A stretch of DNA of 64,000 nucleotides from the human T2T-CHM13v2.0 reference genome, Homo sapiens: NCBI RefSeq assembly GCF_009914755.1, contig NC_060931.1. One strand, 5' to 3'. Positions 1,684-51,198 of this stretch are shown here, piece after piece. A model generated the notes under the pieces. The model was given only the letters and a program-made list of their open reading frames with translations. It made no database searches and was not told the DNA's origin. The translations under genes were made by a program, and so were the position numbers. Positions within the stretch are counted from its first letter, which is position 1; each line of letters opens with the position of its first letter.

Positions 1684-2044
1684 ATTTAAATGAAAGGTCT
1701 AGGTTAATTCCATAGTAGTATGGGACACAGAATTACTTTCAGCTGGGAAGAAGGTGGAAATCAAGGCTGGCTTCCTGGGGGTGGTGCTGTCCAAGGTGTT
1801 TGAACCAGAGCAACTCCATCTTGAATAGGGGCTGGTAGAAATAAGGCTGAGACCTACTGGGCTGCATTCCTAGGAGGTTAGGCATTCTAGTCACAGAATG
1901 AGATAGGAGGTCAGCACAAAATACAGGTCACAAAGACCTTACTGATGAAACAGGATGCAATAAAAAAAGCTACCCAAAGTCCACCAAAACCAAGATGGTG
2001 ATGAGAGTGACATCTGGTCATCCTCACTGCTCATTAAATATGAA

Positions 2045-3860
<1,816 letters not shown>

Positions 3861-4497
3861 TATTCCTTTACTTTTTTAATAAACTTGCTTTCATTTTATT
3901 CTATGGACTTGCCCTGAATTCTTTCTGGTGAAAGATCCAAGAACCCTCTCTTGCAGGTCTGGATCAGAGCCCTTTCCAGTTAACAGTGCCATTCGATTGA
4001 AACCATGAAGGATACAATACACTGTTATTTAAATGTGTACTTCTCTATGGCATGGACAGTATATTCTCTTTTCACTCCTTCCCTCACCATTACAATGCCA
4101 GCCCCCAGCATAGGGGTTTTAGCCTTTGGTAAAAAAATCCCTTTGGTAAAGTCACAAAGTCATGGAATTTTACATTTGAAAGAGACCTCAGATAGCAGCT
4201 AGTTCAACTTCTTTGTTTTACAAGCAATTAGATTGTACTTCATTTTAAAGGAATTCAAGCATAAAGGAAAGAAGGCAGATTTTTGACCTAGAGGTGTCTT
4301 CAGGCAATCCTGTCAACCTTTGTGGGCCTCAGGTGTTTTATATGTAAAACAAGGGCACAGTTACTGCCTGAGGACAGTGGGTAAACCTGGGAGCCACCCC
4401 TTTTAGGTGACAACGTGGATTCTTGTATCATTCTCCTTTTAAAGTCTGAAGAACATTGGAAGTTTGGACAAAGCTTGCTTAATCTTATAAGTTATCC

Positions 4498-4588
4498 AAA
4501 AAAAAAAAAAAAGGTAGAAAAGAGGGAAGGAAGGAAGGAAGGAAGAAGGAAGGGAAGGAGGGAGGGGGGAGGGAGGGAAGGAAGGAAG
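4498..4588. repeat. A/GA-rich simple repeat (GGAA-type)
   Basis: polyA then GAAG/GGAG repeats. Confidence 0.9.
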
Positions 4589-4638
4589 CTTGTGCGTTAT
4601 GAGAAAAAGTGCACAAACTTGGAGAAACTATGCAAGAG

Positions 4639-5420
4639 CAAGCTTGTCCAACCCACGGCCCAGGGTCTGCATGCAGCCTAGGATGGCTTTGAATGTGGCC
4701 CAACGCAAATTCATAAACTTTCTTAAAACATTATTGTTACAGGAAAGGAGTCCTGATCCAGACCCCAAGAGAGGGTTCTTGGATCCCACACAAGAAAGAA
4801 TTCAGGGCAAGTCCATAGAGTAAAGTGAAAACAAGTTTATTAGGAAAGTAAAGGAATGAAAGACTGGTTACTCCATAGCCAGAGCAGCCCCGAGGGCCGC
4901 TGGTGGCTGATTTTTGTGGTTATTTCTTGATGGTATGCTACACAAGGAGTGGATTATTCATGCTTCTCCTTCTTAGACCATATAGGGTACCTTCCTGACG
5001 TTGCCATGGCATTTGTAAACTGTCATGGCGCTGATGGGAGCGTAGCAGTGAGGACGACCAGAGGTCACTTTCGTCGCCATCTTGGTTTTGGTGGGTTTTG
5101 GCCAGCTTCTTTACTGCAGCCTGTTTTATCAGCAAGGTCTTTATGACCTATATCTTGTGCCAACCTCCTATCTCATCCTGTGACTAAGAATGCCTTAACC
5201 ATCTGGAAACGCAGCGCGGTAGGTTTCAGCCTCATTTTACCCAGCTGTTATTCACGATGGAGTTGCTCTGGTTCAAATGCTTCTGACATTATGAGATTTA
5301 TTTGCGATTTTTTCTTTTTTAGCTCATTAGCTATTGTTAGTGTCAGTTTATTTTATGTGTAATCTAAGACAACTCTTCTTTCAACGTGGCACAGAAAAGC
5401 CAAAAGATTGGACACCCCTG
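4639..5420 (-). mobile_element. MER30 hAT DNA transposon split by MER41A
   Basis: Ends CAAGCTTGTCCAA... and ...TTGGACACCCCTG; body contiguous across the LTR. Confidence 0.8.
4735..5288 (-). mobile_element. MER41A solo LTR
   Basis: 554 bp, TGTTAC...CTGACA, TSD TTAT. Confidence 0.9.
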
Positions 5421-33979: not shown

Positions 33980-34267
33980 CCACTGGGCATGGTGGCTCAT
34001 GCCTGTAATCCGAGCACTTTGGGATGCTGAAGCAGGAGGATCCCTTAAGCCTGGGAATTTCAGGCAAGCCTATGCAACATGGTGAAACCCAGTCTCTACA
34101 AAAAAAACAAAAATTAGCTGGATGTGGTGGTATACATCTGTAGTCCCAGCTACTCGGGAGGTGGAGACAGGAGGATTGCTTCAGCCCAGTAAGTTATAGC
34201 TGCAGTGAACTGTGATCATGCCACTGCACTTCAGCCTGGGCAGCAGAGTGAGATCATGCCTCAAAAA
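33980..34267 (+). mobile_element. AluJ
   Basis: GGAGGATCCCTTAAGCC, GCTGCAGTGAACTGTGATCATG. Confidence 0.85.
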
Positions 34268-34985
34268 TATATATGTTATTTATATTAATTAATATATATT
34301 TATATTATTTATAATATTTATATATATAATATATAATATAATTATATTATATAATATATTATATATCATATAATATATTATATAATTATATATTATATTA
34401 TATAATTATTAATTAATATAAATTATTATTTATCATGTATACATTATATGTAATATCATTTATATAATATACATGTATTATTTATAACATATAAATATAT
34501 ATTATTATATTATAAAAATATACACAAATATGTTTATATATAAATATATAATATTTTATATATATTATGTAAAATATTTTATATATTATATATATAATAT
34601 TTTATATAATATATATAAAATATTTTATATATTATATATAATATTTTATATATTATATTATAATTTTATATATTTATATATAAATTTATATATTTATAAT
34701 TTTATATATTTATATATTATATTATATATTATATATATAATATATATATAATATATAAAATATTTTTTATATATAATATTTTATATTTATATATAATATA
34801 TAAAATATATAAAAATATATATAATATATAAAATATATAAAAATATATATAATATATATTATATATAAAAATATATATAATATATATTATTTATATATGT
34901 AAATATAGATTATGAATCATATTATTTTTATATTTTTATATAATATATAAAACATATATATTATGTTACATATTTATATATATCT
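34268..34985. repeat. (TA)-rich low-complexity tract
   Basis: ~700 bp nearly pure A/T grown from the Alu tail. Confidence 0.95.
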
Positions 34986-35356
34986 CATAAATATATACAC
35001 CGAATATGCACCCACAAAAGCTTAAAATAAAAAACTATTTTAAAAAAGCAAGAGGTAACAAATTCTTCCCCAGAAAAGGCTTCACAAAAGAGAGGATGTT
35101 TGAGATTCATTTTGCAGACACTTTGGCCAGCCAGAGAAGACAAGGCTTTAGGCTGATGGGCTCCTATGCAGATGCCATAATGTTATGCCCATCTGCATCA
35201 TGGCTGTGTTTTCCTGGCAAAAGCCACTCATATAATTCCTTATGTGCTGCTGAACGGGTCTCGCTGACACAATACAGCCTGACAGAGTGGAGACAGCCAG
35301 CTACAAAGCATCAGAATGCTGGCTTCTAGCCCCAGGAGTACAACTGCGAGCATGTC

Positions 35357-46878: not shown

Positions 46879-47193
<315 letters not shown>

Positions 47194-47291
47194 TATTCTA
47201 TCTATTTTTATTGTGCTCTCTGATGTGGGGTATGCATTGTGTACAGAGGGTGAGGGGAGAGTGTCATTCACACAGGCTCCATGTTGACCAC

Positions 47292-48900
47292 TGCCATCAC
47301 CCAAGGGGTTCTTCCTGCCAGCTGCTTAAAGACCACCTCATTGTACTAGAGAAAGAGTTAATAGACACGAGGCTGGCCATGCCACACTGGGAGATGGAAT
47401 TGGTACTCTAATCATCTCTTTCAAAGCTCCTAGGTTAGGGGTGTTTCAAAGGCCGTTTGGGGGAAGAGGTGGGGGTGGCCAGGTAACGGGTGCCTGCTGC
47501 TCATTGGTTGGGGCAGAAATGAAATCATAGTGGGTAGAAGCTGTTCTTCTGAGGACTGAATCACTTCTGGATGACGCCACAGCAGCAGGATTGGTGGTCC
47601 AGTTGGAGCCATTAGGTTTAGGTAGAACCATGGATATCAGACATGCAAAAAAAGGAAAGAGGTCCTGATTCAGACCCCAAGAGAGGGTTCTTGGATCTCA
47701 CACAAGAAAGAAATCAGGGCAAGACCACAGATGCAAAGCAAAATATATCTCAAAAGACCAGTCTACCATAGTGGTATTATTTGCAGGAGCAATTGGGGAA
47801 GCTGTGTCTGATAACCTCCAGAATCACGGCTGACAATCATTCATTTCTGAGCCTTAGCAGGACTCAGGTTCCTCTTCTCTGACTAGCCTGATGGGCTGCA
47901 ATTAGCTTTCCAAAAGCAGTTGAGTTCTGGACAAGGCCTATTATCCTTTAAGCTATAGCCTAATAGTCTTTCAAAGTTAGCCTGACCGGATAGCCCAGGG
48001 ATAATTAAGACAAAGGCAAGATGTGGGGGTGGGTTAACTTAGCTTTCTCTTATACTTTTTCTCATCTACGGAATTTTTGCAAAGGTGGTTTTTTGTCAGA
48101 GGTGTTCGAACCAGAGTGACTCCATCTTGAGTGAGGGCTAGGAAAATGAGGCTGAGACTTGCTGGGCTGAATTCCCAAGAAGTGAGGTATTCCTAGTCTC
48201 TAGATGTTTACAGTTAAGGGAACAGATTGATAATGTTTATTAAACAGAACCAGACTTGGGAATGTCCAGATATCCCAATATCTTGAGAACAAATGCATTC
48301 CTAATTTTGCTTTAAAGATAATAATATTGATTCTTGCAAAATTTAGTAATTAAGAAAATTAATCCTTTATCACAAACCCTTGTAGCAGAGAACATCCTCT
48401 CATAATCTTTTTTTAACATATATATGATAAAATATCATATATATGAGATATATATATATCAATCATATATATAAATCCCACCTTCAACCAAAGGGAGGGT
48501 GTCACATTATATTGCATTTAATTAAACTTAGCTCTCCATTCTGTTTCTAATTGTGATATTTAAAATTTTAAACTAGACATAAAATGTTTTCATTTTGTCA
48601 AAAAAAGTGTCAATCTTCATAAGGAATCTTTTATCATATATATGATATATATATATTTTATCATATATATGATAAAATAAATATATATATATTCAAGCAT
48701 TGTACCTTGTACCTAGGGTGGACGTGTTCCTCCTCTTACTTTCGGGAACCTCCTACTCTGTCTATGGAGTAGCTGTATTTTTACCATTTTACTTTCTTAA
48801 TAAACTTGCTTTGCAGACTTGCCCTTAATTCTTTCTTGCACAAGATCCAAGAACCCTCTCTTGGGGTCTGAATCAGGACCCCTTTCTTGTAACAGTTTCA
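47292..48900 (-). mobile_element. ERV1 solo LTR (LTR26-like) with MER41 inserted at its very end
   Basis: TSD CCAC at 47288-47291 and 48901-48904; TTTTGCAAAGGTGGTTT..CA terminus. Confidence 0.65.
48094..48894 (+). mobile_element. MER41C/D-like solo LTR with internal insertion
   Basis: TGTCAGAGGTGTTCGAACCAGAG...GACCCCTTTCTTGTAACA. Confidence 0.85.
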
Positions 48901-50036
48901 CCACCATGAGCACCCAGCATTTTCCAGAGCTTCAGATGCAAGCCTCCACTTTAGTACAGGAAAAAGTCATTTGTTTCAGAGTTGGATTACCAGGGCCATG
49001 TGAGATTTAAAAAAATATATATCAGTGGGGCTTCTTGTGAGGGAGGCTTGGGGGGAACTGAGACAGAAAGACCCGCAGACCCCACCTTCAACCAGGAAGA
49101 GGGTGTCACATTCTATTGCATTTGATTAAACCTAACTCTTCATTTGGTTTCTAATTGCGATATTTAAAATTTTAAACCAGATATAAAACGTTTCCATTTT
49201 GTCATAAAAAGTGTCAATCTTTATAAAGAATAGAAGCAACCCCCCCCCACCAAGAACTCCGTAACTGTCCCTTTAATTAGGCACTCATTAATAAATCTAT
49301 CTTGTTCTCAAATCCCCACACACTTGGTACAGTAGTTCATTAGCACAGGAAGAGGCAATTTAGATTTCCTCAGATAATAGCATCTGCCACTAATCAAATT
49401 AAGGCAGGATGTGCAAATGTATCTAAAGCCGGACAAGCTTTGGGTGAGGTGAGGCAGAGGGTCAGGACAAAAAAGATTATCTCTAAAATTACCATCCCGC
49501 ATCCCCAGTATATGAGACAGTTCCTGGTCACCTTATTTTCCTTATGAAAAAAATCTTCAGTGGTCAGAATATTTATGTTGAGATAGGTCTTGTCAAATCT
49601 TGTCACCATACCTCAAAGCCTTAGAAAGTCACTACCAGTGAACTCTCTGAAATCCATTCATTCATTTAATCATGTAATTAATATTGATTCCATTGCCCTG
49701 TACCAGACCTTGGGGAGACAGAAGGAGAAGACAGAGGAAAGGCATTCTTAACTCTGTGTCCCTCGACACATGGAGGCAGGTGAAACCATACACCTGCCCA
49801 ATCCCAAATGCTGTCACAGCCACCACCACACGCACACACATTCAGTTATTCATGCCTGCATTCATTGATTTATGGATTGAGCAAGTTCTGAGCCCAGCAC
49901 TATGGTGGGTACTAGAGATACAGCTGTAAACGAACGGAGCATTCTGGAGAGGAGACCGGCTATCCACTGTAAGGTAGTTCAGGTGATATGAAGACAATAC
50001 ACTAAGATTGCTCTATTGAGAGGGGTACAGGACAAT

Positions 50037-50587
50037 TGTTACTGGAAAGGGCTCTGATCTAGACCCCAAGAGAGGCTTCTTGGATTTCTCGCAAGAAAGA
50101 ATTCAGGGCAAGTCCATAGAGTAAAGTGAAAGCAAGTTATTAGGAAAGCAAAGAAATAAAAGAATAGCTACTCCATAGACAGAACAGCCCCAAGGGCTTC
50201 TGGTTGCCCATTTTTATGGTTATTTCTTGATGATATGCTAAACAAGGGGTGTATTATTCATGCCTCCCCTTTTTAGACCATATAGGGTAACTTCTTGATG
50301 TTGCCATGGCATTTGTAAACTGTCATGGCGCTGGTGGGAGTGTAGCAGTGAGGATGACCAGAGGTCACTCTGGTTGCCATCTTGATTTTGGTGGGTTTTG
50401 GCCAGCTCCTTTACTGCAATCTGTTTCATGAGCAAGGTCTTTATGACTGGTATCTTATGCTGACCTCCTATCCCATCCTGTGACTTAGAATGACTTAACT
50501 GTCTGGGAATGCAGCCCAGTAGGTCTCAGCCTCATTTTACCCAGCCCCATTCAAGATGGCGTTGCTCTGGTTCAAATGCCTCTGACA
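50037..50587 (-). mobile_element. MER41A solo LTR
   Basis: TGTTAC...CTCTGACA; TSD CAAT. Confidence 0.9.
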
Positions 50588-50651
50588 CAATGAGAGCACT
50601 TTTCTAGTTTGGGTGGTCAGGAAAGGTCTCTGAGAAGGTGACTTTTGAGAA

Positions 50652-51198
50652 TTAAACAGAGAATTACCATTTGACCCAGCAATCCCATTACTAGGTAATA
50701 TACCCAAAGTAAAACAAATCATTCTCCCCAAAAGAGACCTGCAGTAGCATGTTTATTGTGGCACTATTCACAATAGCAAAGAAATGGAATCAGCTTAGAT
50801 GCCCATCAACAGTTGATTGGATAAAGAAAATGTGGTACATATACACCATGGAATACTACACAGCCATGAAAAAGAGTGAAACCATGTCCTTTGTAGCAAC
50901 ATGGATGCAGCTGGAGGCCATTATCCTCATTGAATTAAAAACAGAAACAGAAAGCCAAATACCACCTGTTTTCAGCTGTAAGTGGAAGCTAAACATTGGG
51001 TACACATGAACATAAAGATGGGAACAACAGACAATGGAGACTCCAAAATGGGGGAGGGATAGAGAGGGGCAAGGGTTGAAATGCTACCTATTGGGTACTA
51101 TATTCATTATTTGAGTTATGTGTTCAATTGGAGTCCAAATCTCAGCATCATGAAATCTATCCATGTAACAAACTTGCACATGTATCCCCAAATCTATC
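50652..51198 (+). mobile_element. L1PB-type 3' fragment
   Basis: CCATTTGACCCAGCAATCCCATTACT...; ORF2 C-terminal-like peptide (WIKKMWYIYTMEYY). Confidence 0.85.

What the first reader, a model, noticed from the sequence alone, without database searches (positions are those of the whole stretch)
48415..49231. 151-bp unique sequence copied into the TATA region of a MER41 LTR, wrapped in palindromic AT filler
48477-48627 matches 49081-49231 without gaps (about 19 mismatches in 151 by my count, ~87%). It is flanked by ATCATATATATGAT-type filler, including a perfect 26-bp palindrome TATTTTATCATATATATGATAAAATA (48654-48679), and re-enters LTR-like sequence at AATCTTTT. The architecture matches 1961-3597: an AT-rich site in a MER41 gives filler plus a locally templated piece. 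The copied DNA is motif-rich (ATTGCAT, ATTAA, TAATTG), so candidate enhancer sequence was placed in an LTR promoter (inference).
Basis: partly seen in the sequence, partly recalled or inferred. Interest (0 to 1): 0.7.

Follow-up and report, generated by a model that had tools for sequence, protein, structure and literature searches.

The report
Local DNA copy inside old LTR
A 151-base piece of nearby unique DNA was copied tens of millions of years ago into the TATA box of an old retroviral solo LTR, between hairpin-forming AT repeats; it looks like an ordinary scar of faulty DNA copying or repair.

Summary
48477-48627 and 49081-49231 match ungapped with 19 mismatches in 151. A whole-genome search finds only these two places.

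The host is a solo LTR at 48094-48894 (+). Its first ~110 and last ~140 nt resemble LTRs that print calls MER41A, B or E. Its middle differs, so I file it as MER41 group, subfamily not named.

In 18 of 18 other copies of this LTR type examined, the two LTR pieces are contiguous. The break lies exactly at the LTR's TATA box, so the copy inside the LTR is the derived one.

The AT "filler" is not random. It repeats the LTR's own TATA-flank motif, which occurs on both sides of the insert (48404-48428 and 48625-48646). It folds far better than shuffles (z -5.4).

The pair's divergence (K2P 0.14) is about that between LTR copies (0.12-0.19), so the event is old, roughly 25-60 My.

Best reading: a replication or repair template switch at a hairpin-prone AT array. 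It is probably neutral. Nothing supports the "enhancer placed in a promoter" idea. This is an ordinary kind of event and of low interest.

The parts
48094..48894 (+). Solo LTR of the MER41 group (class I, gammaretrovirus-like; subfamily not named), 801 nt as it stands, split by a net insert of about 275 nt
   Evidence: It starts TGTCAG and ends GTAACA. The flanks are TTTT and GTTT, a 3 of 4 match for a 4-nt target duplication. The 5' piece matches other genome copies at 88-90% and the 3' piece at 83-86%. The subfamily-specific middle has 444 first-look candidates. The right flank is unique DNA, so no provirus interior adjoins it.
48094..48403 (+). LTR 5' piece (U3) up to the duplicated TATA-flank motif
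   Evidence: It is contiguous with the 3' piece in the other copies. Only about the first 110 nt resemble MER41A-type LTRs.
48404..48428 (+). First copy of the LTR's TATA-flank motif (AATC, a T run, then A.CATATATATGAT)
   Evidence: Read. It corresponds to the stretch just before the TATA box in single copies L003, L010 and L012.
48429..48476 (.). Left AT-rich block with ATCATATATATGAT-like units
   Evidence: family D2; inverted pairs I4-I16. It forms hairpins in the DNA fold.
48477..48627 (+). Derived 151-nt copy of 49081-49231
   Evidence: 151 nt ungapped, 19 mismatches. Absent from 18 of 18 other LTR copies examined at this site.
48625..48646 (+). Second copy of the TATA-flank motif. Its first three bases (AAT) are also the last three of the 151-nt copy, giving a 3-nt overlap at the right junction.
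   Evidence: The donor also ends in AAT at 49229-49231.
48647..48693 (.). Right AT-rich block, holding the perfect 26-nt palindrome at 48654-48679
   Evidence: A 19-bp stem pairs 48629-48647 with 48659-48677 (I10).
48694..48894 (+). LTR 3' piece: the rest of the TATA region, R and U5. AATAAA is at 48799-48804 and a 7-nt tandem TTGTACC at 48702-48715.
   Evidence: It matches other copies from 48707 onward. The last ~140 nt resemble MER41A-type LTRs at 76-78%.
48895..49080 (.). Unique spacer between the LTR end and the donor
   Evidence: A whole-genome search of 48891-50033 finds only itself and the 151-nt copy.
49081..49231 (+). Donor: the original 151 nt, lying in 1.1 kb of unique DNA

Best explanation
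A retrovirus of the MER41 group left a solo LTR at 48094-48894. Its TATA box and the T run before it are self-complementary AT sequence. This stretch grew into a short array of palindromic units that can fold into hairpins. During replication or break repair at this array, a growing DNA end left its template. It copied 151 nt from unique DNA 604 nt downstream on the same strand. It then returned to the LTR just upstream of where it had left, at a 3-nt AAT overlap, and went on. The result is: LTR-left, TATA-flank motif, AT block, 151-nt copy, TATA-flank motif again, AT block, LTR-right.

Shown here: the copy, its direction, its exact site, the duplicated motif, the hairpin potential, and the age relative to the LTR. 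Inferred: the template-switch mechanism (FoSTeS/MMBIR-like or synthesis-dependent repair), the order of array growth and insertion, and neutrality.
For: (1) The copy is real and has only two places in the genome.

(2) 0 of 18 other LTR copies examined hold the insert. Eleven were read base by base (L002-L012). Seven were judged from the match coordinates of both halves, which lie 9-21 nt apart where this LTR has about 300 nt.

(3) The site is the TATA box. It is unstable in other copies too: 3 of the 11 copies read carry extra material there. L006 has a 49-nt insert that again duplicates the motif before the TATA box. L008 and L012 show microsatellite growth.

(4) The motif with its C and G letters stands on both sides of the insert, with an AAT overlap at the right junction.

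(5) 48396-48705 folded as single-stranded DNA gives -38.7 kcal/mol against -21.2 +/- 3.2 for 100 shuffles (z -5.44; 0 of 100 shuffles fold as well).

(6) The donor is in cis, in the same orientation, 604 nt away, as local template switches are. Print describes hairpin or cruciform stalling, microhomology and inserted nearby segments as marks of FoSTeS/MMBIR (PMC9199198, passages read).

(7) The 16:3 transition:transversion ratio and the even spread of mismatches fit neutral decay.
Against: The left junction shows no microhomology. After about 13% divergence, a 3-nt overlap on the right is weak evidence.

Beyond its first ~22 nt, the likeness of the two AT blocks (alignment score 28 direct, 20 inverted) is no better than that of other AT arrays of this window (87 tiles: mean 21.9, max 31). 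So the length of the duplicated target is uncertain.

No orthologous genome was available. The pre-insertion allele, the order of events and the age therefore rest on paralogues only. A two-step path gives the same end product.
Confidence: 0.65

Rival explanations
1. Two steps. First, a tandem duplication of about 560 nt running from the TATA-flank motif to 49231 (junction at AAT). Later, a deletion in the first copy removed the LTR 3' piece and the spacer, leaving only the AT block and the 151 nt.
For: It gives exactly the observed order: motif, AT block, 151, motif, AT block, LTR-right, spacer, 151. AT arrays are prone to deletions, and 3 of 11 other copies (L004, L005, L009) lack about 20 nt at this site.
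Against: It needs two independent events with a precise deletion end at 49080/49081. No remnant of the deleted LTR 3' piece or spacer is left beside the copy (no further hits between the flanks).
Confidence: 0.2
2. Reverse-transcriptase route. A short antisense transcript of 49231-49081 was inserted by LINE-1 machinery at the T-rich site, with a target duplication of about 20 nt. Its A tail later decayed into the left AT block.
For: A duplicated target of about 22 nt next to a run of T followed by A is what LINE-1 insertions show (established knowledge, recalled). Another AT array of this window starts right after an Alu-like sequence ending in a run of A (34267-34997).
Against: There is no A or T homopolymer at either end of the copy. 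The left block is made of the LTR's own palindromic unit, not of a tail. A retrocopy landing 600 nt from its source in the same orientation would be a coincidence. No transcript is annotated here.
Confidence: 0.04
3. One reading: the copied piece is regulatory DNA, and its placement between the LTR's U3 and TATA box made or changed a promoter or enhancer that selection then kept.
For: The piece does lie between U3 and a retained TATA-like stretch with native spacing to R. One ATTGCAT is kept in both copies. A human embryonic stem cell enhancer is annotated beside another MER41A LTR 44 kb away (3853-4628).
Against: RefSeq lists no functional element at 47220-50197. The motifs are at AT-matched background. 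The 19 mismatches are spread evenly: the longest identical run is 19, against a random mean of 24.9, and 86% of random placements do as well. There is no Rfam match. The locus lies in a gene desert: the nearest annotated genes are a lncRNA about 86 kb upstream and a pseudogene about 171 kb downstream of the window.
Confidence: 0.04
4. Chance likeness, a dispersed repeat, or an assembly artefact.
For: None found.
Against: E 1e-48 within the window. Only two places in the genome. 13% divergence with a 16:3 transition bias is not what a collapsed or doubled assembly gives.
Confidence: 0.01

Closest known systems
MER41 LTRs (MER41A-G; class I, gammaretrovirus-like ERV of simian primates)
   Same: TG...CA ends, a TATA box, AATAAA, and hundreds of dispersed solo copies. 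The first ~110 and last ~140 nt are 73-82% identical to LTRs that print labels MER41A (upstream of BBS10), MER41B (CEP290) and MER41B;E (GCSH) (labels from PMC6473030 Table 3, passage read).
   Different: The middle ~300 nt has no likeness to those LTRs. There is no GAS (STAT1) motif. It is not MER41A, and it does not match the LTRs that print labels MER41B or E. C, D and G could not be tested properly.
Replicative template switching (FoSTeS / MMBIR) and templated insertions at breaks
   Same: An inserted stretch copied from nearby DNA in cis, a short overlap at one junction, duplication of the sequence at the point of return, and a hairpin-forming repeat at the site (features as described in PMC9199198, passages read).
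   Different: This is an old, fixed germ-line event inferred from one genome. One junction lacks microhomology. The mechanism cannot be told apart from synthesis-dependent repair or from a two-step path.
Palindromic AT-rich repeats (PATRRs) and other fragile DNA palindromes
   Same: AT-rich, self-complementary, predicted to form hairpins or cruciforms, and a site of rearrangement (PMC4255720 and PMC7999016, search listing and start of abstract only).
   Different: Much shorter: a 26-nt perfect palindrome and arms of about 46 nt at 89%, against the several hundred nt recalled for the named PATRRs. It has no known role in translocations.
The other split LTR of this window (1788-3987)
   Same: A MER41-type LTR interrupted by an AT-rich array that carries a locally templated piece.
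   Different: The array is 1.5 kb. The templated piece is an inverted copy of the adjoining LTR sequence (125 nt, 94%), so it is younger and of fold-back type. The break is not at the TATA box.

Membership tests
MER41-group solo LTR | LTR ends TG...CA, with an internal TATA box and polyadenylation signal | tested here: met
   TGTCAG at 48094 and GTAACA ending at 48894. The TATA stretch is at the split. AATAAA is at 48799-48804.
MER41-group solo LTR | Full-length likeness to an LTR named MER41 in print | tested here: not met
   Only the ends match: query 1-114 of the 5' piece and 57-194 of the 3' piece, at 73-82%, to the BBS10, CEP290 and GCSH upstream LTRs. By contrast the neighbours 50034-50595 and 4733-5296 match the BBS10 (MER41A) LTR over 7-559 of 562 nt at 87%.
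MER41-group solo LTR | Likeness to subfamilies C, D or G | tested here: inconclusive
   The AP1S1 upstream element (MER41D in PMC6473030) is only a ~90-nt U5 fragment; LTR_B matches 70 nt of it at 81%. The APOL4 region, said to hold MER41G traces (PMC8557400), gives no hit to any of the three LTRs. A repeat library (Dfam / RepeatMasker) would settle this; none is on hand.
MER41-group solo LTR | 4-nt target-site duplication (class I ERVs; Frith 2025 table, PMC11905727) | tested here: inconclusive
   TTTT before the LTR and GTTT after it, a 3 of 4 match next to a T run.
MER41-group solo LTR | Solo state: no provirus interior on either side | tested here: met
   The right flank is unique in the genome. 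The left flank is a different, older repeat, 72-81% identical to its own copies, and is not found beside 11 of 11 other LTR copies.
Template-switch / templated insertion | Inserted segment is a copy of nearby sequence in cis | tested here: met
   Donor 604 nt downstream, same strand, the only other copy in the genome.
Template-switch / templated insertion | Microhomology at the junctions | tested here: inconclusive
   A 3-nt AAT overlap on the right and none on the left. The junctions are blurred by about 13% divergence.
Template-switch / templated insertion | Structure-forming sequence at the site | tested here: met
   DNA fold z-score -5.44. A perfect 26-nt palindrome.
LINE-1-mediated insertion | A tail at the 3' end of the inserted copy, next to the target duplication | tested here: not met
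   There is no homopolymer at either junction.
DNA transposon / MITE | Many copies sharing the terminal inverted repeats and the inner sequence | tested here: not met
   The inner 151 nt has only two places, both at this locus. The inverted AT arms (46 nt, 89%) are what any array of palindromic units gives.

The most novel reading that the evidence does not exclude
The TATA box with its preceding T run in this LTR subfamily may be a recurrent seed of palindromic AT arrays that break and take up nearby DNA. If so, old LTR promoters would be a predictable class of small fragile sites that shuffle flanking sequence into LTRs. In its favour: 4 of the 12 copies read (this one plus L006, L008 and L012) have grown at exactly this site, two of them with a duplicated motif. 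A second LTR in the same window also carries an AT array with a templated piece.
Probability: 0.25. Interest if true: 0.4.

Novelty: new member of a known kind. Interest (0 to 1): 0.15.

Why it matters
It matters little by itself. It is a clean, datable example of how a hairpin-prone AT stretch (here an LTR's own TATA box) can take up a copy of neighbouring DNA. It also shows that "filler" at such junctions can be traced to the target itself.

It carries a caution for reading LTRs as regulatory modules: an LTR may hold non-viral local DNA. It also corrects the family label. The host LTR is not of the MER41A/B type that carries the known STAT1 and SRF sites.

Tried and rejected
Dispersed repeat: rejected. 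Two places only.

Wider duplication: rejected. Similarity stops at the 151 nt.

Provirus: rejected. The left neighbour (47298-47660 plus 47740-48092) is an older, unrelated repeat, and the right flank is unique.

Known RNA: none (Rfam, 47000-51000).

Naming by the AIM2 'MER41' enhancer: failed. I fetched 78 kb around AIM2 and found no likeness to any of the three LTRs, though a tandem GAS site is there (L014 1340-1369). Frith 2025 (PMC11905727, passages read) explains this: that element is an ERV-Saru LTR, not MER41.

Naming by the Schmid & Bucher motif: a 15-mer of their MER41B-like motif M2 (PMC2897888, passages read) is exact in 50234-50248 and has 2 mismatches in 4934-4948, but is absent from the host LTR and from the 21 loci held at that time.

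Naming by MER41D and MER41G: inconclusive.

Further papers read for gene-anchored examples gave none.

Whole AT blocks as a long duplicated target or as true terminal inverted repeats: not distinguishable from low complexity.

The fuzzy-anchor measure misplaced its anchors for the host LTR and for L002, and found none in L004. For those three I rely on the reading and on my own count (308 nt between anchors here, against 14-75 nt in the others).

Biases:
- The 11 copies and the 40-row lists are the best-scoring hits out of 444 to about 1,800 candidates, so LTR distances are on the low side.
- In one search the 3' pieces of L003, L005 and L004 are partial (95, 102 and 158 nt).

Supplements are closed. 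Frith's Figs S20-S21 and the supplementary tables of the MER41 papers may bear on subfamily names and ages.
Full report
WHAT IS THERE

The reported repeat is real. 48477-48627 and 49081-49231 align without gaps over 151 nt at 87% (blastn 87.4%, E 1e-48). There are 19 mismatches: 16 transitions and 3 transversions, 2 of them at CpG. The likeness stops sharply at both ends. A search of the whole reference genome with either copy returns only these two places. A search with the whole 1.1 kb between the two nearest LTRs (48891-50033) returns only itself and the 151-nt copy. These searches skip very common words and hide closed regions, so 'two copies' is a strong finding but not an absolute one.

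THE HOST ELEMENT

48094-48894 (+) is an LTR. It starts TGTCAG and ends GTAACA. It has a TATA stretch at the point of the split and AATAAA at 48799-48804. Its flanks, TTTT and GTTT, are a 3 of 4 match for a 4-nt target duplication.

- The 5' piece (48093-48414) matches other genome copies over its full length at 88-90% (top 40 of 1,796 first-look candidates).
- The 3' piece matches from 48707 to its end at 83-86% (top 40 of 2,162 candidates).
- The part specific to this LTR type (48207-48404) has 444 first-look candidates, the top 40 at 89-93%.

It is a solo LTR. The right flank is unique DNA. The left flank is a different and older repeat, 72-81% identical to its own copies, and does not accompany any of 11 other copies of the LTR.

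FAMILY

Two other LTRs of the window, 50034-50595 (-) and 4733-5296 (-), are 87% identical to each other. Both align over 7-559 of 562 nt at 87% to the LTR upstream of BBS10, which PMC6473030 (Table 3, passage read) lists as MER41A. One of them holds an exact 15-mer of the MER41B-like motif printed in PMC2897888. So those two are MER41A-type.

The host LTR shares only its first ~110 nt and last ~140 nt with them (73-82% across the window's LTRs and the print-labelled LTRs). It shares the same ends with the LTRs upstream of CEP290 (MER41B) and GCSH (MER41B;E). Its middle ~300 nt is unrelated. It has no GAS motif.

I therefore file it under the MER41 group on the strength of its ends, and exclude A-type and the print-labelled B and E elements. 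D and G were tested without a clear result. C was not tested, because the only gene-anchored example I found in print lies together with interior ERV sequence, which I did not fetch. Naming the subfamily needs a repeat library, not inner genes.

Print places MER41 in class I (gammaretrovirus-like) and dates its entry:
- 45-60 My ago (Chuong et al. 2016, as quoted in PMC9963469 and PMC6473030; passages read).
- In the common ancestor of simians, after about 69 My and before about 43 My ago (PMC11905727, passages read).

WHERE THE INSERT SITS

In other copies of this LTR the two pieces are contiguous. I read eleven copies base by base (L002-L012). Seven more could be judged from the coordinates of their two half-matches, which lie 9-21 nt apart. 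Here the corresponding points are about 300 nt apart. 0 of 18 copies hold the 151 nt or any insert longer than 49 nt.

Single copies such as L010, L007 and L003 read through a T run, a short ATC-containing stretch and a TATA box at this point. The distance between two conserved anchors is:
- 14 nt in L005 and L009. L004 likewise lacks the stretch by my reading; one search found no anchors in it.
- 32-35 nt in L003, L007, L010 and L011. L002 is in this range by my reading; its anchors were misplaced.
- 40 nt in L012, 55 nt in L008 and 75 nt in L006.
- 308 nt here (my count).

The net insert is thus about 275 nt: the 151-nt copy plus about 125 nt of AT-rich sequence.

THE 'FILLER'

It is not random filler. 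The LTR's own motif just before the TATA box (AATC, a T run, then an ATC-like triplet and alternating TA) stands at 48404-48428 and again at 48625-48646, one on each side of the insert. The AT blocks are made of the palindromic unit ATCATATATATGAT, which is this motif joined to its own reverse complement. The perfect 26-nt palindrome at 48654-48679 is one such unit with its T/A runs.

The last three bases of the copy (AAT) are also the first three of the second motif, and the donor ends in AAT too. That gives a 3-nt overlap at the right junction. The left junction has none.

Beyond the first ~22 nt, the likeness of the two AT blocks (score 28 direct, 20 inverted) lies within what 87 tiles of other AT arrays of this window give (mean 21.9, max 31). 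So I claim only the short motif as a duplicated target.

As single-stranded DNA, 48396-48705 folds at -38.7 kcal/mol against -21.2 +/- 3.2 for 100 shuffles (z -5.44; none as good). The stems lie within the AT blocks.

DIRECTION AND AGE

The copy inside the LTR must postdate the LTR, and the only other copy lies in unique DNA. So 49081-49231 is the donor.

The pair differs at 12.6% (K2P 0.142; my standard error from 19 of 151 is about 0.03). Copies of the LTR differ from each other as follows (pieces compared apart):
- 5' piece, AT-rich like the 151 nt: K2P 0.132 (55 pairs); 0.120 for this LTR against the 11 copies.
- 3' piece: K2P 0.186 among the copies; 0.168 for this LTR against them.

These copies are top-scoring hits, so the distances are somewhat low. 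The ratio of about 1 means the event followed the LTR's arrival fairly soon. Scaling by the printed 43-69 My for MER41 gives a best estimate of about 40-60 My, with a lower bound near 25 My from the sampling error. This is inference. No orthologue could be examined.

MECHANISM

The anatomy is: a cis donor 604 nt away on the same strand, a duplicated motif at the point of return, a short overlap at one junction, and a hairpin-forming AT array at the site. This fits a replication or repair template switch as described for FoSTeS/MMBIR (PMC9199198, passages read).

Related print seen only as search listing and start of abstract:
- Short-range template switching in great apes (PMC7954356).
- Palindromes as fragile sites (PMC7999016).
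- PATRRs (PMC4255720).

Rivals:
- A tandem duplication followed by a deletion gives the same product in two steps and cannot be excluded.
- A LINE-1-type insertion is unlikely, because there is no A or T tail.
- A mobile element is excluded by the copy number.

The same site is unstable in other copies. L006 carries a 49-nt insert that again duplicates the motif, and L008 and L012 show microsatellite growth.

FUNCTION

I find nothing that supports a captured enhancer.
- RefSeq lists no functional element or gene at the locus. The only one in the window is a stem-cell enhancer at 3853-4628.
- The window lies in a gene desert.
ATTGCAT occurs in 9% of those tiles. The true octamer is absent.
- The 19 mismatches are evenly spread. 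The longest identical run is 19 nt, against a random mean of 24.9.
- There is no Rfam match.

The insert does move the U3 part about 275 nt away from a retained TATA-like stretch. That would more likely weaken than create an LTR promoter; this is inference.

THE COMPARISON WITH 1961-3597

That locus is a MER41A-type LTR (5' part 1788-2031, 3' part 3861-3987) split by a 1.5-kb AT array. The array holds an inverted, 94% identical, 125-nt copy of the adjoining LTR sequence and its AT flank (arms 1963-2087 and 3155-3279). It shares the theme of an AT array plus a locally templated piece. It differs in orientation, source, age and position in the LTR. The break is about 250 nt into the LTR, well before the TATA box.

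VERDICT

This is a real, old, locally templated insertion at the TATA box of a MER41-group solo LTR. It is a known kind of structural mutation with no sign of function. Interest is low. The boldest reading still open is that this LTR's TATA box is a recurrent small fragile site.

One slip of mine (a short composite string in a note) is told under Tried and rejected.

Noticed in passing
window 1788-3987: A MER41A-type LTR is split by a 1.5-kb AT-rich array. The array carries an inverted 125-nt copy, 94% identical, of the adjoining LTR sequence (arms 1963-2087 and 3155-3279). This makes a large AT-rich palindrome, younger than the 151-nt event.
   Followed up: partly
window 3853-4628: The only RefSeq functional element of the window (OCT4-NANOG-H3K27ac hESC enhancer) overlaps the 3' part of that split MER41A-type LTR (3861-3987) and runs towards the next MER41A LTR at 4733-5296.
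   Followed up: no
window 47653-47743 (-): A ~90-nt fragment of the U5 end of a MER41-type LTR, in reverse orientation, sits exactly between the two halves (47298-47660 and 47740-48092) of an older ~700-nt repeat that is contiguous elsewhere in the genome. It is closer to other LTR copies (89-91%) than to the neighbouring LTR's own U5 (84%). So it is probably a separate truncated insertion rather than a second local copy.
   Followed up: partly
window 34267-34997: A 730-nt complex AT-rich array starts right after an Alu-like sequence ending in a run of A. It shows that such arrays in this window also grow from A tails, and that their likeness to the LTR's AT blocks is compositional.
   Followed up: partly
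L006 (G000:C18:23893516-23894836), about 800-880: Another copy of the same LTR type has an independent 49-nt insert at the same TATA site, again with the motif before the TATA box duplicated on both sides.
   Followed up: partly
L014 1340-1369 (G000:C1, upstream of AIM2): The tandem GAS site of the published AIM2 enhancer is present, but its surroundings do not align to any of the three LTRs of this window. This agrees with Frith 2025, who reassigns that element to ERV-Saru.
   Followed up: yes
window 48702-48715: A 7-nt tandem duplication (TTGTACC twice) lies just after the TATA region of the host LTR. It is single in the other copies read.
   Followed up: no
window 47220-50197: RefSeq's soft-masking marks nothing in this 3-kb stretch, although it holds an 800-nt LTR with hundreds of genomic relatives and a ~700-nt older repeat. 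The mask used there misses old interspersed repeats.
   Followed up: no
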